In this document: in pieces, positions 1,323 to 16,680 of the stretch
How the letters are laid out: every line of letters starts with the position of its first letter
Position numbering within the stretch: the stretch's first letter is position 1
Virus record (IMG/VR): IMGVR_UViG_3300048930_000409
Span: 1-64,000 of that record
From: a virus
DNA length: 64,000 bases
Strand: one strand, 5' to 3'
The notes under the pieces: model-generated
What the model was told of the DNA's origin: nothing
What the model saw: only the letters and a program-made list of their open reading frames with translations
Database searches by the model: none
Position numbers and translations under genes: made by a program

Positions 1323-1543
1323 TGTCGTTCCCTCCGGAACCGGGGTCGCGTCCATCGCCGCCCCGCCCGTCGATTGTATCAACCAGTGCGCCCCTCCGCG
1401 CTTGAAAAGGCCCTCGAGAGTGGCCGAGCGAAAGCTGCATTCCCCACACTCTGGAGATGGAATCGAGCCCCGAGGCGTCCACTGCGCGATATCATCGGAA
1501 CGCGGGCGCCGAATGATGGCGGCCCACGGTCCCGGAGGGGAAC

Positions 1544-1891
1544 ATGTCAGAGGCCCGAATTTTCTCGTACATGGTGGTGCGTGCCATCACGGTCGAACCG
1601 GATGTCTACGTCACGATGCAAGTCTGGCGCGGCGTGGCCGACGTCACGGAAGGCTCCAGCTCGACCCCGGATGACGCCCCGGCGCGGGCTCGCGCCATCG
1701 AGGATGCCATCGCCACATGGACGCATCGCTCGCGTACGGGCAACGCGACGTTCGTCGAAGTGCGGCACGTCATTCTGGAAATCTACCCCGACGGGCACAC
1801 GGACATCGTGGAATCCTATTCCGAGTTCGTGGTCGGCGGGATGCACCTCGAAAACAAGCTGCCCGCCCTCGACGCGCGGTATCGCTCGTAA
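1544..1891 (+). CDS. hypothetical early protein
   Basis: SD hairpin tcccGGAGggga at 1530-1541; TATCAT -10 upstream. Confidence 0.7.
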   Translation: MSEARIFSYMVVRAITVEPDVYVTMQVWRGVADVTEGSSSTPDDAPARARAIEDAIATWTHRSRTGNATFVEVRHVILEIYPDGHTDIVESYSEFVVGGMHLENKLPALDARYRS

Positions 1892-2054
1892 CGCCCCGAC
1901 CCGAGGCCCCTACGGGGGCCTTGGCTTCCGCGTCACGCACCCAGGCAAAGCTTTGCCACCCCCATGAAAACAGAGGCGAAAGCCGACGTCTCCGTTGATA
2001 CAATGGGGGCCACGGCGCCGCCATCGGCGCCCGACATCCCGGAGGGGATACATC

Positions 2055-2471
2055 ATGGAGTTCACCACCGCCGTTTGCACCGCCTGTCTCGCCGAGTTCG
2101 ACGAACCGCTCGCCGACTCCGCGGGCGACACGCACCTTTGCCCGGCGTGCAACGGGCACGAGATTGACGGCACCGAGCCGAGCGTCCCGCCCACCTACCG
2201 CCACGTCAACGCGTACGAGGTCGGCCGATGCTACGGCGGGCCGGAGGAAGGCGGATGGTGGTACGACGCGGGCACGCCGCTCGGGAGCATCATGGTGGAG
2301 AACATCCCCGAGAACATCGAGGCCGGCAAAACCCTGTTGCGGGCCGTGTTCGGGCCAGGGTACGAGGGCAACCGCGACCGCCACTCGGCCGCCGGTGAAG
2401 AGAACCTGGAAATCTACGTCGAAGACCACGTCGCCCGCCCGTTCCCCGCGAGCCGCCCCCGGTACGAGTGA
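2055..2471 (+). CDS. phage early protein with N-terminal Zn-ribbon and YGGPEEGGWWY motif
   Basis: CTAC...CPAC; YGGPEEGGWWY recurs in uncharacterised phage proteins; SD hairpin 2036-2049. Confidence 0.7.
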   Translation: MEFTTAVCTACLAEFDEPLADSAGDTHLCPACNGHEIDGTEPSVPPTYRHVNAYEVGRCYGGPEEGGWWYDAGTPLGSIMVENIPENIEAGKTLLRAVFGPGYEGNRDRHSAAGEENLEIYVEDHVARPFPASRPRYE

Positions 2472-2583
2472 CCCACCCCCGGCCGCGCCTTCGGGCGCGG
2501 TCCACCTACACGCAGGGCAGGGAAAGCTCTGCCTGGGCTGGACAGCACCCCAGAAGTCAGCCCCGCAGCCATCGGTTTTACAG

Positions 2584-2612
2584 TGGACCAGTCCATCGCT
2601 GGTCGATATCAT
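2584..2612 (+). promoter_or_regulatory. sigma70-like early promoter
   Basis: TGGACC-17-TATCAT followed by leader hairpin and SD hairpin. Confidence 0.6.
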
Positions 2613-2659
2613 GGGGTGTTGGTTGCGTGGCGCGACCAACGCACCCCGGAGGGGGCGAC

Positions 2660-2965
2660 ATGAGCAAGACGACCGGTTCCTTGGCCCGTACGACGCAGGT
2701 TCACCGTTTCGACAGCACGGAGGCCGCGTACGACGCGTGCCAGTGCGACGACGCGGTGCAGTCGGGTCACATCCTCTGGATTCCGTCCGAGCACGTCGTC
2801 GGCATCGCGGGCACCTGGCCTGTGGCCGTGTCGACTGACCGGGGTGAGCTGCACACCACGACCGACCCCCTGCTGGGAGGCCGCGTGTCGGCCGCCAACA
2901 TCGCCCTCGCGGTGGCCTTCGCGCGGGAACGGGGCCTGTCGGTGCAGCGCGTGTTCGCCGAATAA
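2660..2965 (+). CDS. hypothetical early protein
   Basis: FDSTEAAYDACQC...GTWPVAV; SD hairpin 2644-2655. Confidence 0.7.
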   Translation: MSKTTGSLARTTQVHRFDSTEAAYDACQCDDAVQSGHILWIPSEHVVGIAGTWPVAVSTDRGELHTTTDPLLGGRVSAANIALAVAFARERGLSVQRVFAE

Positions 2966-3045
2966 CGGAGTCGACATCGCGATTCCTGCGTGACATCATC
3001 ATGGGGTCGGCAATCGCGCCGACCCCGTCTCCCGGAGGGGATGAC

Positions 3046-3327
3046 ATGAAGAACGACCATGACCTCCACGTGGCCCGCCGCACGGCCCGCCGCATCCGCA
3101 TGCTGGCCTACGCGTTCGCGTATCAGCGCCGCCAGGGTATTTCCACTCCCATCGTCCGCATCTCTACTATCACGTTCGCGTGTGCGTCGCGGAGCGACCG
3201 CCTGCACGTGTTGGCCCGGATGCGCGGGGCAGGCGTGTACTGCACGCCCTACCGCGATGCCGTCTCCCCGTGGGCCGTGGCGGGCGACATCACGAAGGCT
3301 CGCGCGTTGATGGGCGGTGCGCGATGA
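3046..3327 (+). CDS. hypothetical early protein
   Basis: TCGACA-17-CATCAT promoter; SD hairpin 3030-3041. Confidence 0.6.
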   Translation: MKNDHDLHVARRTARRIRMLAYAFAYQRRQGISTPIVRISTITFACASRSDRLHVLARMRGAGVYCTPYRDAVSPWAVAGDITKARALMGGAR

Positions 3328-3725
3328 AGCTCCCGAGCACCATCGAATTTCAGCCCCGCGAGATGCGCTTCCTGGTGGAGGATTCCGAGCGGGAGGATGA
3401 CGACCGCTTCCTCGCCCTGCCCGCCCGGTACGAGGTGTGCCCCCGGTGCGAGGGGAAAGGCACGCACTGGCACTCGGCGTTCGACGGCGGTATCACGCAG
3501 GAAGATCGCGACCGGGATTGGGATGATGAGTCCTGGGCGGGCCTGATGTCTGGGCGTTACGACGTCCAGTGCGAGGAATGCGAAGGCAAGCGCGTCGTGC
3601 CCGTGCCGGTCGAGTCCCGCACGACGCCCGAGGCCGAGCACGCCTTCCAGCTGTACACGTCCTACCTGGAGGACGAGGCGGACTACGCCGCCGAACGCGC
3701 CATGGAGCGGAGGATGGGATGCTGA
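3324..3725 (+). CDS. DnaJ-type Zn-finger-like phage protein
   Basis: CPRCEGKG ... CEECEGKR. Confidence 0.7.
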   Translation: MKLPSTIEFQPREMRFLVEDSEREDDDRFLALPARYEVCPRCEGKGTHWHSAFDGGITQEDRDRDWDDESWAGLMSGRYDVQCEECEGKRVVPVPVESRTTPEAEHAFQLYTSYLEDEADYAAERAMERRMGC

Positions 3726-3937
3726 TCACACACCGAGAAATCAACCTGTTGAGGCGCATTTTTCTCTACAAACCCGACCGGTTTGTCTTCGAGATCTACC
3801 GGGGCCGCGTCCTCGTCACGGCCATCGCGCCCACGTGGCGCAGCTGCTGGGAGTGGAACCCCGACCCGATGTACCCGAACGGCGGGTACTGGCGCCCCGG
3901 CGGCGTCCGCGACCTCGAGGCCGCCGTCAATGACTGA
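3719..3937 (+). CDS. hypothetical protein
   Basis: overlapping chain of small ORFs. Confidence 0.5.
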   Translation: MLITHREINLLRRIFLYKPDRFVFEIYRGRVLVTAIAPTWRSCWEWNPDPMYPNGGYWRPGGVRDLEAAVND

Positions 3938-3946
3938 GAGGCTCGC

Positions 3947-4198
3947 ATGAGCAGCGATGGAAAGTGGTTAGCGGGCGCCGCCCTGGTCGTCTCCGTATTC
4001 ACATCCGTAGGCTTCTACAAAGCCTGCGAGTTTCGCGAGAGGGAAGCGGCGCGGCGCTACCGGTGTGTCACGCCGACGCAGACGTTCGAGCACGTCCAGG
4101 TCGGCTACACCTCCCACGGGTCGTGGCTTCTCATTCAAGACAACGGTCTTGAAATCAGAGGCTCCGGCCCCCTGTCCTGCACGGAGATTCTGCCATGA
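3947..4198 (+). CDS. membrane-anchored hypothetical protein
   Basis: N-terminal hydrophobic segment. Confidence 0.55.
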   Translation: MSSDGKWLAGAALVVSVFTSVGFYKACEFREREAARRYRCVTPTQTFEHVQVGYTSHGSWLLIQDNGLEIRGSGPLSCTEILP

Positions 4199-4410
4199 AC
4201 ACCCACGACTACGAAGTCTTGGCCGAGGCGTTCGGCCTCTCGCTGGCCGATACCGCCGACGACACCGCCCGCAGCACCGTGCTGCGTGTGCTTGGCAACG
4301 TGACACGCATGCTGACCGAGACCTACCCCCGATTCCGGCAGGGGAACTTCGTGGGGCAGGTCTACGAAAACGAAGTTCTGATCCGACGACGGAGGTTGTC
4401 CCAGTCATGA
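4195..4410 (+). CDS. hypothetical protein
   Basis: ATGA-coupled on both sides. Confidence 0.6.
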   Translation: MNTHDYEVLAEAFGLSLADTADDTARSTVLRVLGNVTRMLTETYPRFRQGNFVGQVYENEVLIRRRRLSQS

Positions 4411-4670
4411 GCACCATCAAGGAACGCAACACGCGCACGGCCCTCGTGTCGCTGTTTCCCTCGGACGCGCAGATCGTCGAGGCCCGCGCCGTCGTCACGG
4501 ACAACGTCCTGACGTGCCTGCGCATCGAGGCCGTCGACACGGACGCGGACCAAGTCCGTCACTTGATCGACATCGGATCGCTGTCCAACCTCAACGCCCT
4601 GATCGGCGGCCTCGTGGCGTTGCGCGACCACGTCCAGCTGATGGGACCGGATGACCTGGAGGAAAAGTGA
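4407..4670 (+). CDS. hypothetical protein
   Basis: ATGA coupling; gacgacGGAGgttgtc hairpin at 4385-4400. Confidence 0.6.
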   Translation: MSTIKERNTRTALVSLFPSDAQIVEARAVVTDNVLTCLRIEAVDTDADQVRHLIDIGSLSNLNALIGGLVALRDHVQLMGPDDLEEK

Positions 4671-4915
4671 CCGAAATCGCGATGGCATCGCTCACGCTAC
4701 TGACGATTGTCTGCGCACATGAAACCTACCGTGTCTACCGGAGGCACCGCGCGTTCGCCGCCGTCATGAAGCTGGGACGGGTGTGGCTTTTCCTCGAGCA
4801 CTCGCGGGGCCGAGTGATTGCAGGCACGCCCCGTGATGCAGAGCTCCGCGATGCCCAGAACATCATCCTCGCTGCGCGGGCATTCGCCTTGTCTGAACTG
4901 GAGAGGTACCTGTGA
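4667..4915 (+). CDS. hypothetical protein
   Basis: GTGA-coupled ORF. Confidence 0.55.
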   Translation: MTEIAMASLTLLTIVCAHETYRVYRRHRAFAAVMKLGRVWLFLEHSRGRVIAGTPRDAELRDAQNIILAARAFALSELERYL

Positions 4916-5421
4916 ACTTCGACGACTACAACGCCGTCCGGCAGATGGCTCGCGAGCAGTTCAACTATTTCGAGCGAGACCAGCACAACGTCGCGCTGTC
5001 CGCCGCCATCGGTCACTTCCAGAGCGTCGTCAAAGATCTGGAAGACATTCGGGACGCGGTCCAGAAAGGGACCATGGAAGATTGGTCAGTCTACCAGCAT
5101 GTACAGTGGGCCTTCGAGCGCATCCATGGCCGCCGGCCCGCGAATACAGGCGACATGCGCCGGACTGTCAACGATGATGGGCGTACGGCGCCGATACCGG
5201 CCGCCAGTTACGGTTCGGAGGAACCGCCCATGCTCGCCAACGCCCCCGGCAAACTGTACCTGACCGTGGCCCCCGACGGTACCGTCTCCTTGTGGGACGC
5301 GCTCGAAACCGCCAACCACGCGCTCAGGGAAGCCCTGTGCATCCTCCCGCTCACGGATGAGCAGATGGCCGAGCTGCGCCGCGCCCACGCCATCGCCAAG
5401 GCCAAGGTCGAACCGAGATGA
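4912..5421 (+). CDS. hypothetical protein
   Basis: GTGA-coupled 169-aa ORF with SD. Confidence 0.65.
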   Translation: MNFDDYNAVRQMAREQFNYFERDQHNVALSAAIGHFQSVVKDLEDIRDAVQKGTMEDWSVYQHVQWAFERIHGRRPANTGDMRRTVNDDGRTAPIPAASYGSEEPPMLANAPGKLYLTVAPDGTVSLWDALETANHALREALCILPLTDEQMAELRRAHAIAKAKVEPR

Positions 5422-5744
5422 TTACCATCCAGACACGCATCACCTTCACCGCGCCCGAAGTGGAGATGATCCACGCGCACGCCAACGCTGTCTGGGCCTA
5501 CATCGCGGGCGACTGTCTCGCTGGGTTGCGGGACATGGGCAGCAAGCGTACCTACATGACGCGGGCCGAAGTCCTGGACATGGTCCTGGACGCCGACCGC
5601 ATCGAAGAATCCATGCGCGGATTCATGCGCGACTGGGAACCGCGCCGTCGGGATGATTTCTTCGCTCGGTGGAACATCCTGGACTACAAGGCCCGCATCC
5701 GCCTGGTCACGCCCGCGTTCCCGCATCTGCGCTACGGCATGTGA
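5418..5744 (+). CDS. hypothetical protein
   Basis: ATGA-coupled ORF. Confidence 0.65.
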   Translation: MITIQTRITFTAPEVEMIHAHANAVWAYIAGDCLAGLRDMGSKRTYMTRAEVLDMVLDADRIEESMRGFMRDWEPRRRDDFFARWNILDYKARIRLVTPAFPHLRYGM

Positions 5745-5751
5745 CCAACCG

Positions 5752-5830
5752 TCTGCAGGGCCCTGCAGGGCCCGAACGGCACCGGGGACGGGTCACGGCA
5801 TGGCCCGACCCCATATCGCGTCCTGCAGGG
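5752..5830. repeat. CTGCAG-bounded dispersed intergenic element
   Basis: CCTGCAGG ends; reverse strand shares ggggtc(g/c)ggccat(g/a)cc core with the copy at 57.8 kb. Confidence 0.55.
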
Positions 5831-5847
5831 GCGTGGAGGACCAAAGA

Positions 5848-6111
5848 ATGGCCATCGAAGACGCATACCACGTGTGTATCGACACCACCGGCACCGAGGG
5901 CACCGATGCCTATGCCGTGTGGCTGTGCAAGTACGAAGACGACCTCGACGACCGCAACGACCACCCCGGCGACATGCAGTTCTCGTTCATCGTCCATACC
6001 GCGCCGACCCGATGGGAAGCGATGCAGTATGTCGACGAACACTTCCCCAAGGCCGCCATCCGCTTCGTTCGCGAAGCCGACCGTCCCGGCCCGCGCGAGC
6101 TGCACACATGA
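5848..6111 (+). CDS. hypothetical protein
   Basis: GGAGG SD, acidic protein. Confidence 0.6.
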   Translation: MAIEDAYHVCIDTTGTEGTDAYAVWLCKYEDDLDDRNDHPGDMQFSFIVHTAPTRWEAMQYVDEHFPKAAIRFVREADRPGPRELHT

Positions 6112-6365
6112 TGACGGCCCTGCACGCTGACCGCCTGATGCTCCACATCCTGGTGACCTTTGTCTGGGCGCTGTGGCTGTCCCTGTTGTCCGAGGACATC
6201 GTCGCCGCTGGACGAACCCAGCGCCAGTACGAAGCCACGCGCACGCCACTGCCGCGCTTCTACGGGACGTATCGCTTGGCGATGATGTTCCTGATGCTGT
6301 ACTCGTTCCTGGCCTATGCCTGGTACTGGTACCGGGTGTGGACGACCCCGAATTTTCCAGTGTAA
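6108..6365 (+). CDS. two-TM membrane protein
   Basis: two hydrophobic segments. Confidence 0.6.
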   Translation: MMTALHADRLMLHILVTFVWALWLSLLSEDIVAAGRTQRQYEATRTPLPRFYGTYRLAMMFLMLYSFLAYAWYWYRVWTTPNFPV

Positions 6366-6430
6366 CAGGCCATCACTGCATGGCATGATGGGTGGGTCGG
6401 CGATGATGCCGACCCGCCGTCCCGGAGGGG

Positions 6431-6703
6431 ATGATGCTGACCTACTTCCAGTGCGAGTTCGCCCACTACGGCACCGTCGTCAAAGTGCATGTCGACCTCA
6501 AATCACACGAGGCGACCTACCTGGTGCTCCATCAGGGCGTCATCGTTCAGCACGGCCCCATCCACGCCCTCGTCCCTGGCACGACCTGGCGCGAGGTCGC
6601 CACCCCCGAACAGGTCCGTGACCTGATCCGTGCCCGCATCGAGGGCATTCACTTCTCCGCCCAGCTGCTGACGTCCCTGTCCACCCACACCGTAGGAGTG
6701 TAG
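6431..6703 (+). CDS. hypothetical early protein
   Basis: CATGAT -10, leader hairpin, SD hairpin 6420-6431 (start may be 6434). Confidence 0.65.
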   Translation: MMLTYFQCEFAHYGTVVKVHVDLKSHEATYLVLHQGVIVQHGPIHALVPGTTWREVATPEQVRDLIRARIEGIHFSAQLLTSLSTHTVGV

Positions 6704-6704
6704 C

Positions 6705-7220
6705 ATGCCGATCAAGAAGGCTCGATTCACCGCACACGTGATGCTGACGCTGGAAGTCCCCGCGATCCCCCGCGGGTCCATAGTGGCCGACCCCGCGCTC
6801 GCTGCGCGTATCGGGAAGGCGCTCGACAACTACCTCGACGAGCTGCGCGGACAGGACCTCATCCTCTTCCGAGCGCTGATGTCCACGGGGCCTGGCGCCG
6901 ACACTGTCGGCGTGCGCTTGGCCGGCGCCGAGGTCACGAACGCGTACGTCGGCAGCCCCGGCGACCAGGACGAATCCGAGGACGATGAGCCTGCCAAGCG
7001 CCAGGAGCCTGACGTGCCCGCCCTGGCCCCCTACGACCAACACATCGCGCGGATGGCGATGATGGAGTACGTCAAGGGCCTGTCGTTGGACACCGAACCT
7101 CTCAACGAGGAAGAAGCCAGCCGCGTCGCGGCCCACAGCATCCGGTTGGGACAGATCTACGCGCACTACGCGATGCGGCGCCCCATCTACTCCCCCTACG
7201 CGCGGAGAACCCGGTCGTGA
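6705..7220 (+). CDS. hypothetical protein
   Basis: AGGAG SD; 171 aa. Confidence 0.65.
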   Translation: MPIKKARFTAHVMLTLEVPAIPRGSIVADPALAARIGKALDNYLDELRGQDLILFRALMSTGPGADTVGVRLAGAEVTNAYVGSPGDQDESEDDEPAKRQEPDVPALAPYDQHIARMAMMEYVKGLSLDTEPLNEEEASRVAAHSIRLGQIYAHYAMRRPIYSPYARRTRS

Positions 7221-7576
7221 ACCGCCGCAATTTCTTGACTGGTGTCATCGTCTCGGCTGCGGCCGGGGCGGTGACGCTTGCCACGGACGAGGAAGTCTCC
7301 GCATTCGGCACGGGCACGCCCGCCCGGCTGACGCCCAAGCCAGAGCTGTCCCCCGGTCTCGTCACTGGCCCCATCGACCCGGCGCTCTACGTCCAGACCA
7401 CGGACGGGCGCTACGTGGAGGTCGGCCTGATCCGAGACATCCTGATCTCGAGTGAGCCAGGCAGAGCGATGTCCGTCGAGGGCACGTTCATGTCTTGGGG
7501 GGCGCCGGACCCCTTGCTGCTCCGCGCGTTGATGGGCGAATTTCCAAGTGGACGACGGTTTCACTGGCGCCCATAA
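7217..7576 (+). CDS. protein with twin-arginine-like N-terminus
   Basis: MNRRNFLTGVIVSAAAGAVTLA. Confidence 0.6.
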   Translation: MNRRNFLTGVIVSAAAGAVTLATDEEVSAFGTGTPARLTPKPELSPGLVTGPIDPALYVQTTDGRYVEVGLIRDILISSEPGRAMSVEGTFMSWGAPDPLLLRALMGEFPSGRRFHWRP

Positions 7577-7631
7577 TGGTTGATGTCGGGGGCGGGCATG
7601 GTGCTTGCCCCCACCACGGTTCGGAGGAACC

Positions 7632-8644: not shown

Positions 8645-8861
8645 CGCCGCCCTGTAGGACACGCGGGTCCGGGGCCGCCCCGGTCCCCGACCCGCGACCC
8701 GTTCGGGGCTTGTAGGGCCGCGCAGGCGCCCCCAGGAGGCCCCTCCCGGGGCCGCATGCGGGACCACACCCGCCCACATTATCAAGTGGACCAAGGATTC
8801 CTGATCGACGATGATACATGGGTCGGCGGGAATGGCCCGCTGACATGCATCGGAGGATGCC

Positions 8862-9170: not shown

Positions 9171-9171
9171 C

Positions 9172-9378: not shown

Positions 9379-9417
9379 CACAGTGGACATCCCCCGGCTG
9401 GCGGGGGATGATGTCCA

Positions 9418-9572: not shown

Positions 9573-9596
9573 CCTGAAACGGTTCGGAGGAACCTC

Positions 9597-10103: not shown

Positions 10104-10114
10104 CCGGGGGTTCC

Positions 10115-10399
10115 ATGTCTGTCGACTTTGCTTGGGCCATCTGGCTAGTGTCCATCGCGTCGAGCAGCATCACGTCGCTCATCGCGGAAGCCGACACGCG
10201 GCAGCGAAACACACGGCTTCTAGAGCGACACCGGGACTCCTATGGAGTGCCCTACCGCCGACCGGGGAACGGCGAGCCGCCCCTGCCGCCGCCCGTGCTG
10301 CTCAAGGCGCATTGGGGGCTTCGCCTGGTCGGTGTCTACGCCATCGCGTCGACTTTGGTCTTGGTCGGGTGGGCAATTCTCACACTGGTGACGGCTTGA
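10115..10399 (+). CDS. two-TM membrane protein
   Basis: hydrophobic N- and C-terminal segments. Confidence 0.55.
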   Translation: MSVDFAWAIWLVSIASSSITSLIAEADTRQRNTRLLERHRDSYGVPYRRPGNGEPPLPPPVLLKAHWGLRLVGVYAIASTLVLVGWAILTLVTA

Positions 10400-10400
10400 C

Positions 10401-10592
10401 ATGCTGCCCAGTAGCGAGTTCCGGCACCTGACCGATACCCAGTTACGCGAACGTGTTCGGCGCTTCAAGATGTACGGACGAAAGTCTGCGGAAGCGCACG
10501 AACGCGTGCGAATGCTGCAAGAGCTCGGCGTCCGGCGAGCGCTCAGGGCCGATGGCCGGTCCGTCATTGTGAAGCCCGAATCAAGGACGTAG
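10401..10592 (+). CDS. small basic hypothetical protein
   Basis: 63-aa ORF in operon. Confidence 0.5.
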   Translation: MLPSSEFRHLTDTQLRERVRRFKMYGRKSAEAHERVRMLQELGVRRALRADGRSVIVKPESRT

Positions 10593-10661
10593 CCGGGCGC
10601 CTGTGTGTCATGATGGGTGGGTCGGGGAATGGACCCCGGCCCCATCCCGGAGGGGATGACC

Positions 10662-11009
10662 ATGTACGAGTTCACCAAACACGGCGGCGTGACTGTCACT
10701 TGTGGCGCGTGCCACGCCCAGACCCCCGCCCACACGACCACGCGCCTCCGCATCGGCGACCCGCCCTCGTGGATGAAAGTCGAAACCGGTCAGTGGGATT
10801 TCTCGCACGACTGCGCGGCGACCCGCATCCTCAAGCTGCCCCGGACGGACACGGTCGATGCCTGCCCCGCGTGCGTCGACCGTCTCGCTCGTCAGCGCCG
10901 CCAGGGCGGAAACGATTACCTGCCGCGCCCGACCGCCCCTCGCATCACGAACAACTACATGAAGGCGATGCCGCGCCTGATCAAGACCGGAAAGGCAGCG
11001 ACACCATGA
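10662..11009 (+). CDS. Zn-finger-like hypothetical protein
   Basis: CGAC...CPAC; SD hairpin catcccGGAGgggatg 10643-10658. Confidence 0.7.
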   Translation: MYEFTKHGGVTVTCGACHAQTPAHTTTRLRIGDPPSWMKVETGQWDFSHDCAATRILKLPRTDTVDACPACVDRLARQRRQGGNDYLPRPTAPRITNNYMKAMPRLIKTGKAATP

Positions 11010-11224
11010 ACGACGGACGCGCACGACGACTGCTGGCTCTGGTCGCCTCTTCCATGACGAACGAGGCGCACCGGACCGCACGGCTGACCCTGATGAAGAC
11101 CGAATGGACGGACCCCACGGCGGCGGATGAAGCGCTGGACCGTCTGGCCCGCCTGACCGGCATGCCCAAGGACACCTGGGCCCGTGCCCTGATCGAAGAC
11201 ATGAGAGGACGGAAGACCGCATGA
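11006..11224 (+). CDS. hypothetical protein
   Basis: ATGA-coupled. Confidence 0.55.
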   Translation: MNDGRARRLLALVASSMTNEAHRTARLTLMKTEWTDPTAADEALDRLARLTGMPKDTWARALIEDMRGRKTA

Positions 11225-11727
11225 ACGACAACCCCTACACTGCCCACCCGGCCCGTGTTAGTCGACTGACCAGCCGAGCCAGCAACCTCGCGGCGGTCCT
11301 TCGGGCCGTCGCGGGAGACACGCCGGTCGCCGGAGAAGACCAGCTGAGACGCGCGGCAAAGCTGTTGCAGCCCGCTGCGGAACAGGCCTACGCCGGACTG
11401 AAGAACGTCCACGGCCGAGTCGAGTACGGGTTGATGACGGCCAGTGTCATCGGCGATGCCAACCCCGAGGGCAAAGCCGCTGCCCGGCGTCGGCGCCAGG
11501 CCGGGCGCAATGCCGCCAACCAAGCGGCACGGGCGGCCCGCCAGGAAGCCGAACGCACCCTGTTGCTGGAAATGGCCACCGTCTTCGACGACATGGCGCG
11601 GCTGGCGCGGTTTGCAGCTGACTCCATGGCCGACATGTCGGGCGCCATCAACACGCTGCGCGAAGCGGTCGGCGTGACGCACCGCGCCATGAAGAACATG
11701 GCCGAGTTCAAGGAGCCCCAGGCATGA
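11221..11727 (+). CDS. helical/coiled-coil hypothetical protein
   Basis: ATGA-coupled, Ala/Arg-rich. Confidence 0.6.
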   Translation: MNDNPYTAHPARVSRLTSRASNLAAVLRAVAGDTPVAGEDQLRRAAKLLQPAAEQAYAGLKNVHGRVEYGLMTASVIGDANPEGKAAARRRRQAGRNAANQAARAARQEAERTLLLEMATVFDDMARLARFAADSMADMSGAINTLREAVGVTHRAMKNMAEFKEPQA

Positions 11728-11966
11728 AGCCCCGCACCTGGCTCCAGACTCAGAACATCCGCCTCGAAGAGTCCGGGCACGAGCTGGCCACGTGGACGCC
11801 CGGCGATGCCATGGGCACGCGCTACCGCATTGTGCGGAAGGGGATGGACTACGACGCCGAAAACTCGGTGTTGACGGCCCTCGGCCGGAAGGCCGCCGAC
11901 ACGATGGTGACGGCCTTCACGATTGGCTTCCACCGAGGACAGTATGCCCCCCGGCGCACCCACTGA
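11724..11966 (+). CDS. hypothetical protein
   Basis: AAGGAG SD. Confidence 0.6.
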   Translation: MKPRTWLQTQNIRLEESGHELATWTPGDAMGTRYRIVRKGMDYDAENSVLTALGRKAADTMVTAFTIGFHRGQYAPRRTH

Positions 11967-11978
11967 CGAGAGGACATC

Positions 11979-12203
11979 ATGGGACCATCCGATCAGATCG
12001 AAGCGTTGACGGAGGAGAACCGTCAACTGACCACCCGCCTGAATGACATGCGGATGCGTCGAGACAACTTGGCCCGTCGGGTCGACTCCCTGAACAACAT
12101 GGTCCGTGCCCAGGACACGTTGATTCAGGAGCAGCACACTATGCTGCAGTCCGTCCTGATGGAGAACCCGACCTACGAACCGCCGAAGGTGTACGGCCGA
12201 TGA
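11979..12203 (+). CDS. coiled-coil hypothetical protein
   Basis: heptad pattern; GAGG SD. Confidence 0.6.
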   Translation: MGPSDQIEALTEENRQLTTRLNDMRMRRDNLARRVDSLNNMVRAQDTLIQEQHTMLQSVLMENPTYEPPKVYGR

Positions 12204-12463
12204 CGACTATCTGGAAATACGAGCTCGACGTCACGGACATCCAAGCGGTGCCCATGCCCGAGGGCGCTGTCATCCGGCACGTCGGACAACAGAATGGCCA
12301 GCTGTGCGTGTGGGCAGAAGTCAACGCGTCAGCCCCGTCCGTCGATCTCCTGTTCGAGATCATCGGCACGGGCAACCCGATGCCTGCGCGCAATCGCACC
12401 TACCGCGGAAGCGTGCAGGTCGGCATCTTCGTGTGGCACGTCTACACGGTGGACGGCCGATGA
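12200..12463 (+). CDS. DUF7352-like phage protein
   Basis: IWKY.L...MP.GA...Q.GQLCVWAEV...FEIIGTG...FVWHVY. Confidence 0.7.
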   Translation: MTTIWKYELDVTDIQAVPMPEGAVIRHVGQQNGQLCVWAEVNASAPSVDLLFEIIGTGNPMPARNRTYRGSVQVGIFVWHVYTVDGR

Positions 12464-12813
12464 AGATCAGAATCAAGAAGCCCGCTGCCGCCCCGGCGCC
12501 TGCGCCACCGCGAGGCATCAAGCACTTGCCGGCCAGGACGGACGCCGAAGGGCTGAAGAACTACCATCGGAAGCCCCCGGTCGACAAGCGCATTTTGCTG
12601 CCGTCAGCCGGAGAAGTTCACGACATGTCGGCAGAACACCTGCTGCTCTGGAGCACGCTGACGTCGGAGTTCAACCGGGCGCTGCGCTTGGAGCGCGCTC
12701 GGCAACAGGCCATCAAGGAAGAAAAGCACGCATTGGCAAAGGTCGAGGCCGACACGCGGGACTCGGCCCTGGTCTACTGCTACGACAAGTACTCGGACTA
12801 CATCCCGTTCTAG
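12460..12813 (+). CDS. hypothetical protein with basic N-terminus
   Basis: MKIRIKKPAAAPAP... Confidence 0.6.
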   Translation: MKIRIKKPAAAPAPAPPRGIKHLPARTDAEGLKNYHRKPPVDKRILLPSAGEVHDMSAEHLLLWSTLTSEFNRALRLERARQQAIKEEKHALAKVEADTRDSALVYCYDKYSDYIPF

Positions 12814-12934
12814 TCGCACGTTTGCAGTATACACCGAACCACTGGCGGTTTATCATTGGTTCATTGGATGCGGGCACGACGTCGGCATCTGACACGAACG
12901 GTTCGGTGAGAACCTGAACACCACGGAGGACATC

Positions 12935-13504
12935 ATGAAGCTCGGCATCGTGAAGAAGGCGGCGGTCAAGACCCCCGCACCGGCGAAGAAGAAAGTGGCC
13001 GCGAAGGCCAAGACCACCGACATGGTGACGGCCTCACTCGAGAACGCCGCCCCGGCCCCGGACGAGGCGTCCGCCCCCGCCGCCAAGGCCGACAAGACGG
13101 CCAAGGCCGAGAAGGCCCCCAAGGCGCCCAAGACCCCGAAGGAGAAGGCGCCGTCGAAGTTCGTCTCCCGCGACGCCCACGCGTTCACGCTGCCGAACGG
13201 CGACAAGTTCAACGACCGCCTGCGCGTGTCCGAGTTCCAGGACCTGACGTTCTACCAGAACGGCACCAAGAAGCTCACGGACGCCCAGCTGGTCGAGCTC
13301 TGGCAGGAGCAGTTCCCGACCGCGTGCGGCGGGGCGTTCAACGTCTTCCACGTCAAGGGTGCCCGCCGCGACTACAACGCGGGCAAGCACTCCAAGATGT
13401 TCGACGGCGTCAAGACCGGCGACCGCGTCTCGGTCGAGTACGACGCCACCAAGGCCGTCGTGCCCGTCCGTGGCAAGGCCGCCCCCACGACCGCGACGGC
13501 GTAG
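12935..13504 (+). CDS. histone-H1-like (K/A/P-rich) putative DNA-binding protein, paralog A
   Basis: KAP-rich N-terminus plus globular FQ...KLTDAQL...FP.A...HV.G.R..YN.G domain; very biased codons. Confidence 0.75.
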   Translation: MKLGIVKKAAVKTPAPAKKKVAAKAKTTDMVTASLENAAPAPDEASAPAAKADKTAKAEKAPKAPKTPKEKAPSKFVSRDAHAFTLPNGDKFNDRLRVSEFQDLTFYQNGTKKLTDAQLVELWQEQFPTACGGAFNVFHVKGARRDYNAGKHSKMFDGVKTGDRVSVEYDATKAVVPVRGKAAPTTATA

Positions 13505-13526
13505 GCCCTCCGACTCCGTCGTCGCG

Positions 13527-13570
13527 CCCGGTGTGCCTTCCCCTCCCAGTCGAAGGCACACCGGGTTTTT
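13527..13570 (+). terminator. intrinsic terminator
   Basis: 14-bp perfect stem cccggtgtgccttc/gaaggcacaccggg followed by TTTTT. Confidence 0.8.
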
Positions 13571-13584
13571 CTCTGGAGATATGC

Positions 13585-13815
13585 ATGGCCCTCAAGTGCT
13601 GCCCCGCGATGGTGGTCACGGTGCTACCTTCACACACGCCGCTGCGGTCGCGCACCATCGAACGCTTGTGCGGTGAGCCGCTCAATCCTGGGGAAGAGCT
13701 GTGCGAGCACCACCGGGCCGAGCAGGCCGAACTGAGCCGAAGGATTGCTCGCCGTAACGCCCAGAAGTTGCAGGATTACATGAAAGGCAAAGCCCGTGCC
13801 AAGACGGACGTTTGA
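13585..13815 (+). CDS. hypothetical protein
   Basis: GGAG SD; Cys/His-containing. Confidence 0.55.
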   Translation: MALKCCPAMVVTVLPSHTPLRSRTIERLCGEPLNPGEELCEHHRAEQAELSRRIARRNAQKLQDYMKGKARAKTDV

Positions 13816-14080
13816 CATCCAGGGTCATACGACAGAAGTCGTGCGCCTGCCGTTCTTCGCGGGTCCGGATGGACACCTCGCGATCGAGGCGCACTTCATG
13901 AACAAGTGTCTGTCCGTGTTGAAGATGGTCTCGTCCAAGGCCGGTGATTCCGATACGGTCATTCACTTGACCGACACACGGCTCATCTACGGGATAGAGT
14001 GTCTGGATTCACTCATTCTCGGGTTGACGGCGTTCCGAGAAGAACTGCAGAAGAGAGCCAACCGTGGCGACATCCGATAG
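13796..14080 (+). CDS. hypothetical protein
   Basis: 94-aa ORF. Confidence 0.5.
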   Translation: MPRRTFDIQGHTTEVVRLPFFAGPDGHLAIEAHFMNKCLSVLKMVSSKAGDSDTVIHLTDTRLIYGIECLDSLILGLTAFREELQKRANRGDIR

Positions 14081-14270
14081 TGGCATTTGCCCGCGCTGCG
14101 GCGAACCGATGCCCCAGGGCGAAGCCGACCACGCCACGGCGTGCATCTACGAGCCGTGCAACGAAGTCTCGTGCAAGGCGTTGCGGAATCCGCTGACCTT
14201 CGATCAGATGACCGACGCCCAGCTGCACTTCCGCTACCACAAGATCGTCATCCCCCGGAGGCGTCCATGA
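14064..14270 (+). CDS. small Zn-finger-like protein
   Basis: CPRCG...H...C. Confidence 0.5.
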   Translation: MATSDSGICPRCGEPMPQGEADHATACIYEPCNEVSCKALRNPLTFDQMTDAQLHFRYHKIVIPRRRP

Positions 14271-14476
14271 CCGTGACTGAATTACATGAACACTTGGAGT
14301 CGATGATGGCTTGCAACCCGGCCATCGCCGAGCTCCCCGTCCGCGTGGTGCGCCCGAACGAAGCTACTCCCGCGACCCCGGTGGACGGGATTGCCTACCA
14401 CGCGTTCCTCGGTGAAGTCGTACTCGTGGCCCAGGTCCCGTACACGGTCGTCGAGCGGGCGAAACCCGGCCTGTAA
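14267..14476 (+). CDS. hypothetical protein
   Basis: MTV.EL...L motif; ATGA coupling. Confidence 0.6.
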   Translation: MTVTELHEHLESMMACNPAIAELPVRVVRPNEATPATPVDGIAYHAFLGEVVLVAQVPYTVVERAKPGL

Positions 14477-14482
14477 CATGTT

Positions 14483-14556
14483 CTGCAGGACACGCATGGC
14501 CCGGCCCGGCCCGTGGTATGGGCGGCGCCCCGTTCGTGTCCTGCAGGACCCCTAAG
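14483..14556. repeat. CTGCAG-bounded dispersed intergenic element
   Basis: 12-bp perfect IR ctgcaggacacg/cgtgtcctgcag; core cataccacgggcc on the - strand. Confidence 0.7.
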
Positions 14557-14570
14557 CCACGGAGGTGGCC

Positions 14571-14822
14571 ATGTCCGACGCCCCCATTCGTACCGTCACG
14601 CGTCGTTTCGGCTTTGACCGCGACGACCTGCAAGCCATCGCCGCCTGGTGGGTCGAGTCCGGCCAGGAACGGTGGGACAAGTCCGCCGAGGCCACGACGC
14701 CGGCTTGCGAGATGGAGATTCAAGACTTCCTGGATGCCTGTGTCCGAGGCAACCTCGCGGCCATCAAGGCAGAGCTCGCTGCCCGTGAGCCCCAGAAGAT
14801 GAAGGTCCGCATCAAGCGGTGA
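14571..14822 (+). CDS. hypothetical protein
   Basis: SD hairpin gccacGGAGgtggc; ends KMKVRIKR. Confidence 0.65.
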   Translation: MSDAPIRTVTRRFGFDRDDLQAIAAWWVESGQERWDKSAEATTPACEMEIQDFLDACVRGNLAAIKAELAAREPQKMKVRIKR

Positions 14823-14903
14823 TTTTGCAGGTGACACCCGCCCCGCCTTTCGACGACGATGGGTGTGGGCGGATGGACCGCCCGACCCACATCGGAGGAT
14901 GTG

Positions 14904-15185
14904 ATGCGAGACGGAATTACGGTACACCCTGGCGGTGGCATGACCATCGAGGGCCCCATCCACATCGAGCTGTACCGGTTGATGGCGACCCGGTCGGCGC
15001 TGAAGCTGGAAGTCCGAACGGGCATGCAGATGTCCCGTGGCCGGTCGGCGGCCTCGGTCGCCCGGACCATCGTCGCGCTGCCAAAGCGCAACAAGGCCGA
15101 GCTGCTCGCCCAGCTGGAGGCGTACATCGAGACGTTTTGCGCCAACAACGGTCTCTCGGCCCCGTCGTGGGTGGGTGAGCGATGA
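14904..15185 (+). CDS. hypothetical early protein
   Basis: ALKLEV.TGM.MSRGRS; SD hairpin 14888-14903. Confidence 0.7.
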   Translation: MRDGITVHPGGGMTIEGPIHIELYRLMATRSALKLEVRTGMQMSRGRSAASVARTIVALPKRNKAELLAQLEAYIETFCANNGLSAPSWVGER

Positions 15186-15580
15186 GCAACATCGAAGTTT
15201 GCCCCAAGTGCTACGGGGCCAAGGAGATCACCATCTTCCGCCAGACGAAGACGTGCGGCATGTGCGGCGGGCGCGGCTTCGTCGTCTATGGCACACCGCC
15301 CCCGGACGGCGCTTACGTCCTGCGCGCGACACCGGCGCCCCCGGACAAGCAAGGCTACCCGCTGGCGGCCGGGGGGTTCGACTTCACCCTGACCATCGAG
15401 GAGTACGCGGACGCGGACCTCGGCCCCGGTCTGCATGTGCGCGTCTGGATTCACCACCCGAACGAGGCCTTTGACTGGAACGGCACGCCCATCGGGACGT
15501 TCCAAGACCTCGAGCACGCGGCGCGGGCGTGCAATACGCTGTTCCCCGCGTATCCCCCTGCATTCGTCACCACGTCGTAA
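15182..15580 (+). CDS. DnaJ-type Zn-finger-like protein
   Basis: CPKCYG...CGMCGGRG. Confidence 0.65.
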   Translation: MSNIEVCPKCYGAKEITIFRQTKTCGMCGGRGFVVYGTPPPDGAYVLRATPAPPDKQGYPLAAGGFDFTLTIEEYADADLGPGLHVRVWIHHPNEAFDWNGTPIGTFQDLEHAARACNTLFPAYPPAFVTTS

Positions 15581-15587
15581 GGAGCGT

Positions 15588-16040
15588 ATGGACACCTCAC
15601 ACACCATGCCACTGGCGGACGCCATCGAGTTGATGGGCCGCGATTGGAACGACTTCACTCCCTGGTACACGGCGCTGGCCGAGAGACATCCGGCCGCATT
15701 CCCGTTGGCGCAGGCACCTATCCGCTGGCTGATGGCCATGCGCGGGTGGAAGTACCTGCGCGACGTCCCTCCGGGCCTGCCGACCCAGACCGGCGTGCCC
15801 CAGGACGCGCAATCCTGGTACGAGCTCAACATCACCGAGCGCCCGTTCCTGGTCATCGTCGGCGAGGTCGTGACGATCCTGTTCCTCGCCGAACTGCACT
15901 ACGAAGCGTACGAGTTCATCCGGCGCGTGCGCGACCTGATCGCGTGGCTCGGCGAGAACGACGACTACGACGAAGGCCAACTGTTCCACATCGTTCAGGA
16001 GTACGTGCGGCCGACAACGGCCATGCGCGAACTCTCGTAG
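15588..16040 (+). CDS. hypothetical protein
   Basis: AAGGAG SD. Confidence 0.65.
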   Translation: MDTSHTMPLADAIELMGRDWNDFTPWYTALAERHPAAFPLAQAPIRWLMAMRGWKYLRDVPPGLPTQTGVPQDAQSWYELNITERPFLVIVGEVVTILFLAELHYEAYEFIRRVRDLIAWLGENDDYDEGQLFHIVQEYVRPTTAMRELS

Positions 16041-16047
16041 GAGACCC

Positions 16048-16293
16048 ATGCCGCCGAAAAAGCTCAACCCCCGCACCAACGTCGAAGCCGCCATGGATTC
16101 CTTGCTACTCGCCGGACAAGCACGGCTGTGCATCGTGGCCACGTTCGACGTTCGGAAGTTGAAGACGTCTGACGTGCTCCAGACCGTCACCGAAGCTCTC
16201 GACGCCCTTCGGAATCAGGGTAAAATCGAGGCCGCCACCATCGAGTGGCCCCCGACCGACCCCCACGTCGAGGACGTCACACACCTGAACTAG
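16048..16293 (+). CDS. hypothetical protein
   Basis: AGGAG SD. Confidence 0.6.
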   Translation: MPPKKLNPRTNVEAAMDSLLLAGQARLCIVATFDVRKLKTSDVLQTVTEALDALRNQGKIEAATIEWPPTDPHVEDVTHLN

Positions 16294-16301
16294 AGGAGCC
16301 C

Positions 16302-16592
16302 ATGCCACACGACATCGTCACAGCCCAGATGTCCCCCACCCAGCGGGACACCATGTACCGACTGGCGAACACCGTCGCAGAAAGCTTGATCGCGGCGGGC
16401 GGCAACGAAGACGTTCGCATCTCGACGGTCGCGCTGCTGCGCGTCATCGCGGCCGTCATGGCGCGAAATCCCTGGGGCCGAGATCCGGTGACGCAGGCGC
16501 ACATCAGTGAGCTGTTGCCGCTGTACGTCCGCGCCGCCATCGAGTCCAACGACGGGAGTCGCATCATCCGACCGTTTTCCAAGTTGGTGTAG
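16302..16592 (+). CDS. hypothetical protein
   Basis: GAGGAG SD. Confidence 0.6.
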   Translation: MPHDIVTAQMSPTQRDTMYRLANTVAESLIAAGGNEDVRISTVALLRVIAAVMARNPWGRDPVTQAHISELLPLYVRAAIESNDGSRIIRPFSKLV

Positions 16593-16680
16593 CCCCGCAA
16601 GACAGGCACACGCCCATCGCTTGACGGTATGATGGGTGTGTGCCGTGGACGGACCCCGGCCCGCATCGGAGGATGCGACG

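What the first reader, a model, noticed from the sequence alone, without database searches (positions are those of the whole stretch)
1327..16677. Early-gene RNA regulon: Shine-Dalgarno displayed in a C-GGAG-G loop on a covarying stem
Seen: the SD of at least 13 genes is the loop of a 4-6 bp hairpin whose stem changes compensatorily while C(GGAG)G is fixed: gttcc/ggaac (1327-1340, -), tccc/ggga (1530, 3030, 6420), atccc/gggat (2036), cccc/gggg (2644), ggttc/gaacc (7618, 9581), gcatc/gatgc (8847), catccc/gggatg (10643), gccac/gtggc (14556), cacatc/gatgtg (14888), cgcatc/gatgcg (16662); also gacgac/gttgtc (4385). Most head a transcription unit. I did not see the pattern at late-gene RBSs. Known: CsrA/RsmA binds GGA in hairpin loops over the SD. 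Inference: a shared translational operator or translation enhancer for a host or phage RNA-binding protein; no csrA homolog is visible in this window.
Basis: partly seen in the sequence, partly recalled or inferred. Interest (0 to 1): 0.8.

Follow-up and report, generated by a model that had tools for sequence, protein, structure and literature searches.

The report
Early-gene ribosome-site tetraloop hairpins in phage
An uncultured 76-kb wastewater phage puts the ribosome-binding site of 15 early genes into the same tiny RNA hairpin (GGAG as a four-base loop on a stem whose sequence changes but always pairs); the pattern is real and far beyond chance, but what reads it is unknown.

Summary
Fifteen early genes (window 1.3-16.7 kb) have GGAGG arranged as a GGAG tetraloop closed by C-G on a 4-6 bp stem. 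There are at least six different stem sequences, and the start codon lies 0-5 nt behind the stem.

- 13 of 30 early GGAG ribosome sites carry such a stem, against 0 of 28 middle or late sites and 4 of 550 non-RBS GGAGs.
- A covariance model finds no further copy in 370 kb (this genome plus five relatives).

Most copies sit in a repeated cassette: sigma-70-like promoter, covarying hairpin I near the predicted RNA 5' end, SD hairpin, ATG.

A sister genome (85-97% identical) keeps every hairpin; its single stem change turns G.U into A.U. Relatives at 40-67% DNA-polymerase identity lack the element, so it is lineage-specific.

No CsrA, RegB or other RNA-binding domain was found in the phage, and the loops do not fit the CsrA A(N)GGA(N) hexaloop rule.

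Best reading: a cis-acting early-leader RNA structure that holds the SD core unpaired, and possibly also a handle for an unidentified shut-off factor. The closest known are the start-associated sequences (SAS/ESAS) of actinophages, whose function is also unknown.

This scan noted similar SD hairpins in other, unrelated phages.

The parts
1327..1340 (-). SD hairpin GTTCC[GGAG]GGAAC; ATG at 1322 (gene 1005-1322, minus strand)
   Evidence: -7.2 kcal/mol; 24.1 bits
1530..1541 (+). SD hairpin TCCC[GGAG]GGGA; ATG 1544
2036..2049 (+). SD hairpin ATCCC[GGAG]GGGAT; ATG 2055
2644..2655 (+). SD hairpin CCCC[GGAG]GGGG; ATG 2660; sigma-70-like promoter at 2584-2612
3030..3041 (+). SD hairpin TCCC[GGAG]GGGA; ATG 3046; promoter-like site at 2971-2999; hairpin I at 3003-3026
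4385..4400 (+). SD hairpin GACGAC[GGAG]GTTGTC (one G.U); ATG 4407. It is internal to an operon, inside the 3' end of gene 4195-4410, with no promoter module
   Evidence: (-7.4 kcal/mol)
5211..5226 (+). SD hairpin CGGTTC[GGAG]GAACCG with its own -10-like hexamer and hairpin I. The whole module lies inside the conserved ORF 4912-5421, before the in-frame ATG at 5230.
6420..6431 (+). SD hairpin TCCC[GGAG]GGGA, plus an outer G.U that is A.U in the sister genome; ATG 6434
7618..7631 (+). SD hairpin GGTTC[GGAG]GAACC; ATG 7632; promoter-like site at 7549-7577; hairpin I at 7588-7612
8847..8860 (+). SD hairpin GCATC[GGAG]GATGC; ATG 8862
9581..9594 (+). SD hairpin GGTTC[GGAG]GAACC; ATG 9597. It follows a terminator-like hairpin; the nearest promoter-like site is 9384-9412
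10643..10658 (+). SD hairpin CATCCC[GGAG]GGGATG; ATG 10662; hairpin I at 10619-10642
   Evidence: (-10.5 kcal/mol)
14556..14569 (+). SD hairpin GCCAC[GGAG]GTGGC; ATG 14571. It follows a CTGCAGGAC-bracketed element, not the usual promoter module
14888..14903 (+). SD hairpin CACATC[GGAG]GATGTG; ATG 14904; hairpin I at 14862-14887
16662..16677 (+). SD hairpin CGCATC[GGAG]GATGCG; ATG 16681 (DUF2786/DUF7168 protein)
6384..6417 (+). Example of the upstream half of the cassette: -10-like CATGAT (6384-6389), then hairpin I (6392-6417, -20.3 kcal/mol). Equivalent units stand before 12 of the 15 SD hairpins

Best explanation
The hairpin is the 3' half of a repeated, roughly 70-nt early promoter-leader cassette. 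The cassette runs: host sigma-70-type promoter, a variable but always paired hairpin I at or near the predicted RNA 5' end, the SD hairpin, then 0-5 nt and ATG.

In the mRNA the SD hairpin acts in cis. It locks the bases on both sides of the Shine-Dalgarno sequence into a short helix. The four core bases GGAG therefore stay single-stranded as a loop, whatever GC-rich sequence lies around them.

This gives the first cistron of each early transcript a context-independent ribosome site. That cistron has no upstream ribosome to open it. Together with hairpin I, the leader is compact and almost fully paired, so it is probably nuclease-resistant.

Shown:
- the structure, its covariation, its restriction to early genes and its cassette context;
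- the predicted exposure of the SD core;
- purifying selection between two strains.

Inferred:
- that the RNA forms in vivo;
- that the promoter start lies at hairpin I;
- that the effect is on translation or stability.

The uniform C-GGAG-G geometry would also make a good common handle for a trans-acting factor (see rivals). I cannot exclude that both apply.
For: - The structure is real and selected for pairing. There are at least 6 different stems, 90% of cells are paired, and 5 of 6 pairs show double changes.
- The sister genome G006 is 85-97% identical. It has 1 change in about 200 nt of stem and loop, and that change turns G.U into A.U. The adjacent upstream leader differs by 6.4%.
- The element always lies on the coding strand directly before the ATG, including the one minus-strand gene.
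- Cassette context: a -10-like hexamer plus hairpin I precedes 12 of 15 sites. Sigma-70-like sites number 8, against 2.4 expected, and 3 of them directly precede SD hairpins (2644, 3030, 7618) while a fourth lies about 170 nt upstream of the 9581 hairpin.
- Truncated leaders fold as two adjacent hairpins.
- SD-core opening energy is 0.07 kcal/mol per nt, against about 0.9 for all other genes (p = 4e-7). Opening the whole SD window costs only about 1.5-2.5 kcal/mol more than at other genes. The hairpin therefore displays the SD rather than blocking it.
- No candidate binding protein was found.
- The element is absent from relatives that keep the promoter and hairpin I at the orthologous gene. 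It is also absent from the early region of G002. This fits a recent cassette-borne design.
Against: - If only SD exposure mattered, loops of varied size and position would be expected. Here all 15 are exactly GGAG on a C-G pair.
- A four-base loop is a poor geometry for pairing with the anti-SD, so the helix must still melt.
- Site 4385-4400 has the hairpin without any cassette, inside an operon. The hairpin is therefore selected in its own right.
- Middle and late first cistrons do without it.
- Relatives with equally GC-rich leaders do without it.
- There is no transcript or expression evidence.
Confidence: 0.42

Rival explanations
1. The hairpin is a translational operator for a trans-acting RNA-binding protein. 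The protein could be host CsrA/RsmA-like or an unrecognised phage protein. It reads the GGAG loop on its C-G pair and so represses, or activates, all early first cistrons together. This would be a temporal class switch.
For: - Loop and closing pair are invariant on variable stems, as in classical protein-hairpin operators.
- Distribution is strictly early-only, 13/30 against 0/28.
- One hairpin occurs without a cassette, at an internal gene (4385-4400).
- 4-5 leaders carry a second GGA in the loop of hairpin I, 17-19 nt upstream. This lies within the 10-63 nt range for CsrA dual-site binding (PMC7652899).
- Presence only in this lineage fits a co-evolving, phage-specific factor among the many orphan early genes.
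- A GGAG tetraloop closed by C-G is a known protein-binding RNA surface: HIV-1 SL3 with nucleocapsid (PMC7599994). This is a structural precedent only.
Against: - No CsrA family match in six frames at E <= 10.
- No RNA-binding domain found by Pfam on 47, or PHROGs on 30, of the 48 predicted early proteins.
- The CsrA rules are not met: there is no A(N)GGA(N) hexaloop, no conserved A, and the stems are more stable than the SELEX optimum (PMC7652899).
- The second GGA is missing in 10 of 15 leaders.
- The host is unknown, so host CsrA cannot be assumed.
Confidence: 0.3
2. The hairpin is the target of a RegB-like, GGAG-specific endoribonuclease that inactivates early mRNAs by cutting inside the Shine-Dalgarno sequence. 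It presents GGA unpaired with the fourth G constrained.
For: - T4 RegB cuts GG^AG in early SD sequences and spares most middle and all late ones.
[quoted passage not shown] That is the geometry predicted here.
- Late RBSs of this phage are of the unstructured AAGGAG type.
Against: - No RegB family match at E <= 10.
- The strong RegB sites of T4 need the A-rich 3' context GGAGRAYARAA (PMC1702504, PMC3014915). Here the 3' side is a GC-rich stem.
- RegB is generally inhibited by secondary structure (PMC1702504).
- No nuclease domain was found among the early proteins.
Confidence: 0.1
3. There is no RNA function for the pairing. The inverted repeats would be a DNA-level feature, such as a protein-binding palindrome or a recombination site. 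Or they would be a by-product of copying one promoter cassette around the early region.
For: - Cassettes are clearly paralogous. For example, 6384-6433 and 10609-10660 share CATGATGGGTGGGTCGG...TCCCGGAGGGGATG.
- The early region is mosaic between strains.
Against: - At least six unrelated stem sequences cannot be one DNA-binding site.
- The loop is asymmetric and always on the coding strand.
- G.U pairs are tolerated at 4385-4400 and 6419/6432, and one becomes A.U in the sister genome. That is an RNA signature.
- Simple copying would give identical stems, not compensated ones.
Confidence: 0.08

Closest known systems
Start-associated sequences (SAS) with extended SAS (ESAS) of Cluster K mycobacteriophages and Cluster EF Microbacterium phages (PMC3203893, PMC7302621)
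   Same: - A repeated element sits at the RBS position, contains the SD core and lies a few nt before mostly ATG starts.
- There are 10-19 copies per genome, all in one orientation and only in the non-structural half.
- The outer parts are symmetric (GGG-N7-CCC).
- About half of the copies are preceded by an inverted-repeat element with a variable spacer.
- The function is unknown.
   Different: - SAS is a conserved 13-bp sequence. Here only CGGAGG is constant, and the flanks vary with compensation, which shows RNA pairing.
- The SAS authors found no support for ESAS hairpins in mRNA. Here hairpin I covaries.
- There is no sequence or phage relationship between the two.
- The host here is unknown.
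CsrA/RsmA/RsmE binding sites over Shine-Dalgarno sequences (glgC, hcnA; PMC7652899)
   Same: GGA sits in the loop of a short hairpin overlapping the SD. Some leaders have a second GGA loop at a suitable distance.
   Different: - The loop is a tetraloop, not an A(N)GGA(N) hexaloop.
- There is no conserved A.
- The stems are stronger.
- No csrA gene is found in the phage.
- The host is unknown.
T4 RegB endoribonuclease targets (PMC1702504, PMC3014915)
   Same: An early-gene-specific GGAG Shine-Dalgarno. The geometry (GGA unpaired, fourth G constrained) matches the S1-independent substrate.
   Different: There is no regB homologue and no A-rich 3' element. The hairpin context is otherwise inhibitory for RegB.
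PeSL (promoter-early stem-loop) cassettes of T4-type phages (PMC2839356)
   Same: Many copies of a small cassette with a sigma-70-like early promoter plus a stem-loop. They are spread through a plastic region of small orphan genes that differs between sister phages.
   Different: - The PeSL stem-loop is a transcription terminator.
- Here both hairpins lie downstream of the promoter, in the leader, and the second carries the SD.
HIV-1 psi-site SL3 (GGAG tetraloop bound by nucleocapsid; PMC7599994)
   Same: The same loop sequence, GGAG, on a stem. It is a proven protein-recognition surface.
   Different: An unrelated biological system with no zinc-knuckle protein here. The weak CCHC hit of gene 3324-3725 is a DnaJ-type CxxCxGxG finger. 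It is a structural precedent only.

Membership tests
CsrA/RsmA binding site | GGA unpaired in the loop of a hairpin overlapping the SD | tested here: met
   GGAG is predicted unpaired with P >= 0.9 in 11 of 15 leaders
CsrA/RsmA binding site | A(N)GGA(N) hexaloop or the RUACARGGAUGU consensus, with the ACA and GGA motifs 100% conserved (PMC7652899) | tested here: not met
   All 15 loops are 4 nt. The base before GGA is always C. There is an A two bases upstream in only 2 of 15
CsrA/RsmA binding site | Weak stems, mostly 4 bp or fewer; very stable structure is disadvantageous | tested here: inconclusive
   Stems are 4-6 bp and GC-rich, at -6.1 to -10.5 kcal/mol
CsrA/RsmA binding site | A second GGA site 10-63 nt away for dual-site binding | tested here: inconclusive
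   An unpaired GGA lies in the hairpin I loop in 4-5 of 15 leaders
CsrA/RsmA binding site | A CsrA protein is available (phage or host) | tested here: not met
   Phage: PF02599 gives no six-frame match at E <= 10. Host: unknown, not testable
SAS/ESAS (actinophage start-associated sequences) | A repeated element at the RBS position containing the SD core, a few nt before the start, in one orientation, in non-structural genes only | tested here: met
   15 sites, 0-5 nt between stem and ATG, all on the coding strand, all within 1.3-16.7 kb
SAS/ESAS (actinophage start-associated sequences) | A conserved 13-bp asymmetric sequence (GGGATAGGAGCCC or GGGAAAGGACCCC) with at most 2 deviations | tested here: not met
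   Only the six bases CGGAGG are invariant. The flanks vary
SAS/ESAS (actinophage start-associated sequences) | An upstream inverted repeat with a variable spacer at a subset of sites | tested here: met
   Hairpin I stands before 12 of 15 sites. Here, unlike ESAS, its changes are compensatory
RegB target site | GGAG in the SD of early mRNAs, with GGA unpaired and the fourth G constrained | tested here: met
   rule quoted from PMC3014915
RegB target site | A-rich 3' context GGAGRAYARAA | tested here: not met
   The 3' side is the GC-rich stem arm
RegB target site | A RegB nuclease is encoded | tested here: not met
   PF10715 gives no match at E <= 10
PeSL cassette | Repeated sigma-70-like early promoter plus stem-loop in a plastic region of small ORFs | tested here: met
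PeSL cassette | The stem-loop is a terminator | tested here: not met
   Both hairpins lie between the promoter and the ATG and lack a U-tract
Rfam families | Match to any curated RNA family | tested here: not met
   Only two sub-threshold microRNA chance hits in 1-20000

The most novel reading that the evidence does not exclude
A lineage-specific early-translation regulon. An unidentified factor, a phage orphan protein or a nuclease, would recognise a C-GGAG-G tetraloop that is itself the Shine-Dalgarno sequence. It would use this to silence or cut all early first cistrons at the switch to middle expression. That would be a new type of SD operator, distinct from the CsrA, RegA and RegB sites.
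Probability: 0.3. Interest if true: 0.8.

Novelty: new variant of a known kind. Interest (0 to 1): 0.6.

Why it matters
Repeated motifs at the ribosome sites of non-structural phage genes (SAS/ESAS) have been known since 2011. They still have no mechanism, and it has not been shown whether they act as RNA.

Here the equivalent element has lost sequence conservation but kept pairing, so it must act as RNA structure. That makes the old question testable: 15 natural stem variants, one loop, a sister strain, and relatives that lack the element.

If a factor reads the loop, this would be a compact phage device for switching off a whole temporal class at the level of translation. If no factor does, it is a natural design rule for context-independent ribosome sites in GC-rich leaders, of use for synthetic biology.

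The same scan has seen comparable SD hairpins on first early cistrons in several unrelated phages. That suggests a convergent and under-described strategy.

Tried and rejected
- **Known RNA families:** Rfam at E <= 1 over 1-20000 gave nothing relevant.
- **Phage CsrA or RegB:** none at E <= 10.
- **RNA-binding, nuclease or Arg-rich N-like proteins among the early ORFs:** Pfam, PHROGs and a composition scan gave nothing usable. The weak CCHC hit of gene 3324-3725 is a DnaJ-type CxxCxGxG zinc finger. ESM Atlas look-ups of two basic proteins gave no lead.
- **Close relatives in GenBank phages:** none.
- **Relatives in IMG/VR:** only one sister contig, plus relatives at 40-67% PolA identity.
- **Relatives in JGI metagenomes:** the single scan gave two short contigs with the DUF2786 orthologue.
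- **Exact-pattern scan of IMG/VR with a 17-mer of the cassette:** only the sister contig and unrelated matches.
- **Expression:** no RNA holder is on record. Four wastewater runs labelled RNA-Seq are held as contigs and are probably DNA. Laying them gave strain variants but no transcript ends.
- **A permissive 'any SD-like triplet in any 3-8 nt loop' criterion:** not informative. Chance gives about 10% of genes, and relatives reach 4-18%. Only the specific GGAG-tetraloop class stands out.
- **Restriction-site explanation:** rejected, because only some stems create CCGG or TCCGGA.
- **Lambda boxB/nut or HK022 put reading:** considered and rejected. There is no GNRA-like pentaloop, no N-like protein, and there are 15 copies, each fused to an SD.

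Full report
**Context**

The window is bases 1-64000 of a 76,211-bp IMG/VR virus record. It is 64% G+C, and CheckV rates it complete. Its contigs recur in wastewater metagenomes.

My own codon-bias gene call gives 115 genes:
- Small orphan genes on the + strand from 1.5 to 18 kb.
- A replication block from 19 to 38 kb. It holds an SNF2 helicase, a PD-(D/E)XK nuclease, a ThyX-like protein, AAA_24, family A DNA polymerase and a Toprim primase-helicase.
- Structural genes on the - strand from 38 to 73 kb. The 1730-aa protein is a tape measure.

The left 18 kb is therefore the early region.

**The observation**

I found one more at 5211-5226.

In each, GGAGG is arranged as a GGAG loop closed by C-G. 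The G of that pair is the fifth base of the SD. The stem is 4-6 bp, and the start codon follows 0-5 nt after it.

The stems fall into at least six unrelated sequences:
- (A/T/C)CCC/GGG(T/A/G)
- GGTTC/GAACC
- GTTCC/GGAAC
- (G/A)CATC/GATG(C/T)
- GCCAC/GTGGC
- GACGAC/GTTGTC

**Is it more than chance?**

Yes.
- Of 30 early-gene GGAG ribosome sites, 13 have a perfect stem of 4 bp or more. The other 28 sites have none (Fisher p = 5e-5).
- Of 550 GGAGs not at a ribosome site, 4 have such a stem.
- Shuffled flanks give a mean of 0.2. Permuted partners give a mean of 1.6 and never more than 7.
- Five related genomes serve as GC-matched controls. They have 0-5 such hairpins each; only one (G005, 15220) lies at a predicted ribosome site.
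- A covariance model built from the 15 sites scores them at 20.5-26.6 bits. Nothing else exceeds 16.1 bits in 370 kb, which covers the window, the rest of the genome and five relatives.
- On the anchored alignment, 90% of cells pair and 5 of 6 pairs show changes on both sides. No shuffle out of 500 reached this, and every slid register collapses.
- RNAalifold finds the same helix unaided.

The sites were picked for pairing. I therefore treat the enrichment figures, not the covariation counts, as the unbiased test.

A looser criterion does not separate this genome from chance or from relatives. That criterion accepts any SD-like triplet in any 3-8 nt loop. It is the uniform tetraloop class that is special.

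**Surroundings**

Twelve of the 15 hairpins are the last part of a repeated module. The module has three parts:
- A -10-like hexamer (TATCAT, TACAAT, CATGAT, CATAAT and similar), sometimes with TG before it.
- A first hairpin, 1-11 nt further on, of variable sequence (-11 to -22 kcal/mol). Its loop often reads AUGG(A/C).
- The SD hairpin, a few nt after that.

The consensus scan finds 8 sigma-70-like promoters in 1-19500, against 2.4 expected. Three of them directly precede SD hairpins: 2584-2612, 2971-2999 and 7549-7577. A fourth, 9384-9412, lies about 170 nt upstream of the 9581 hairpin.

With a start about 7 nt behind the -10, the transcript would begin at or just inside hairpin I. This is an inference; no RNA ends are available.

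Three sites depart from the module:
- 4385-4400 lies inside the end of the preceding gene of an operon.
- 9581-9594 follows a terminator-like hairpin.
- 14556-14569 follows an element bracketed by CTGCAGGAC boxes.

The whole module before 5230 lies inside an ORF (4912-5421). That ORF stays open and conserved in the sister genome.

**Related genomes**

*Sister genome.* G006 (IMGVR_UViG_3300006056_000056) aligns at 82-99% over this genome and 85-97% over the early region.
- It keeps all 14 perfect hairpins.
- In about 200 nt of stems and loops there is one change, and it turns an outer G.U into A.U. The leader just upstream differs at 6.4% of positions.
- Hairpin I shows compensated changes too: G-C to U-A at the 5217 module and G.U to G-C at 7623.

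*More distant relatives lack the element.*
- G002 (PolA 67%) has the syntenic early region with ordinary GGAGG and AAGGAG sites.
- G001 and G003-G005 have none.
- In two metagenome contigs the orthologue of gene 16681-17406 is 59-64% identical. It keeps the promoter and a long hairpin I with a GAUGG loop, but its SD is not in such a hairpin.

The SD hairpin is thus a recent, lineage-specific addition to an older promoter-plus-hairpin leader.

**What the hairpin does to the RNA, by prediction**

- The isolated hairpins are worth -6.1 to -10.5 kcal/mol. In 11 of 15 leaders the four loop bases are unpaired with P >= 0.9.
- The SD core costs 0.07 kcal/mol per nt to open. The cores of all other genes in this GC-rich genome cost about 0.9 (p = 4e-7).
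- Opening the whole -14..-4 window costs a little more than elsewhere: median 7.1 against 4.5-5.9 kcal/mol.

The structure therefore displays the core and locks the flanks. It is not a strong block.

**Who might read it?**

Nothing could be identified.
- CsrA (PF02599) and RegB (PF10715) give no six-frame match at E <= 10.
- Pfam (47 of the 48 early proteins) and PHROGs (30 of them) give no RNA-binding or nuclease domain.
- Composition scans and two Atlas look-ups gave no lead.

Against the published CsrA rules (PMC7652899), the hairpins have GGA in a loop. They lack the A(N)GGA(N) hexaloop and the conserved A, and they have stronger stems. Only 4-5 leaders have a second exposed GGA.

Against the RegB rules (PMC1702504, PMC3014915), the geometry fits the S1-independent substrate: GGA unpaired and the fourth G constrained. 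The A-rich 3' element is absent.

**Judgement**

The pairing is selected and acts in RNA. The signs are an asymmetric loop, coding-strand orientation on both DNA strands, tolerated G.U pairs and compensated changes.

I favour a cis-acting role within a portable early leader cassette (0.42). In this reading the hairpin gives a context-independent, exposed SD core, and with hairpin I it makes a compact 5' leader.

A trans-acting reader cannot be excluded. It is suggested by three things: the strictly uniform loop geometry, the early-only distribution, and the cassette-free copy at 4385. I put an operator for a binding protein at 0.30 and a RegB-like cut site at 0.10. A DNA-level or hitch-hiking explanation is unlikely (0.08).

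**Comparison with what is known**

The nearest described elements are the SAS/ESAS of Cluster K mycobacteriophages and Cluster EF Microbacterium phages (PMC3203893, PMC7302621).
- Shared: position, copy number, orientation, restriction to non-structural genes, and an upstream inverted repeat.
- Different: those are conserved sequences. Their function, and whether they act as RNA, are unknown.

The cassette organisation recalls the PeSLs of T4-type phages (PMC2839356), but there the stem-loop is a terminator.

I file the finding as a new variant of a known kind. It is not a member of any of these families. Earlier notes of this scan report comparable SD hairpins on first early cistrons in unrelated phages, some with a phage CsrA-like gene. 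Here I tested for such a gene and found none.

Noticed in passing
window 5173-5232, inside ORF 4912-5421: A complete promoter-like, hairpin I and SD-hairpin module lies inside a 169-aa ORF. The ORF is open and conserved at protein level in the sister genome. The hairpin encodes GSEEP and precedes an in-frame ATG at 5230. It is either an internal start giving a 63-aa C-terminal isoform or a recent fusion of two genes.
   Followed up: partly
window hairpin I loops, e.g. 1350-1356 (-), 10628-10634, 14873-14878; L005:245-252: The loop of the first leader hairpin often reads (A/G)AUGG(A/C)C. The same GAUGG loop is kept at the orthologous leader in relatives at about 60% protein identity, which lack the SD hairpin. 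Hairpin I is therefore the older element.
   Followed up: partly
window 14480-14556; also 5745-5847, 8645-8700, 37885-38066, 57756-57928: Repeated (G/T)TCCTGCAGGAC-like palindromic boxes, often in pairs that bracket GC-rich spacers, sit at the borders of transcription units. One pair stands directly before the SD hairpin at 14556. Other readers of this genome also noted them.
   Followed up: no
window about 1905-1930 and 2480-2504: Early units end in GC-rich hairpins directly after the stop codon. An example is GGCCGCGCC-TTCG-GGCGCGGTCC, with a UUCG loop and no clear U-tract. Each early unit is thus bracketed by 5' and 3' stem-loops.
   Followed up: no
window 3937/4193, 4670/4971, 11966/12446, 13591/13743, 15185/15353: Wastewater contigs of related strains replace or delete whole small genes exactly at gene borders. 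For example, 255 nt is replaced by 345 other letters, and 479 nt is deleted. The early region is a mosaic of gene cassettes.
   Followed up: no
L087:8310-8341 and 11095-11124; L092:14684-14715 and 17434-17465: Two relatives (G001, G002) share conserved hairpins that hold the SD in an 8-nt loop before two structural genes: TTCTG[AACAGGAG]CAGAA and ACGA[ACACGGAG]TCGT. This genome has no equivalent at the orthologous genes.
   Followed up: no
window 18250-18393 and L002 about 13700-13900 (genome 73.7-73.9 kb): Two stretches are unusually AT-rich and polypyrimidine, unlike the rest of this 64% GC genome. Each runs CCCC...CTTTCCCTTTCTTCCTTTTTCT and is followed by TAATAT-type sequence. The gene at 18394 starts right behind one of them, with no SD.
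   Followed up: no
window 3324-3725: An early acidic 133-aa protein carries two CxxCxGK(G) motifs, a DnaJ-type zinc finger. Apart from the 16681 DUF2786/DUF7168 protein and DUF7352 (12200-12463), which clear Pfam's cut-offs, this sub-threshold match is the only other recognisable domain among the early genes.
   Followed up: partly
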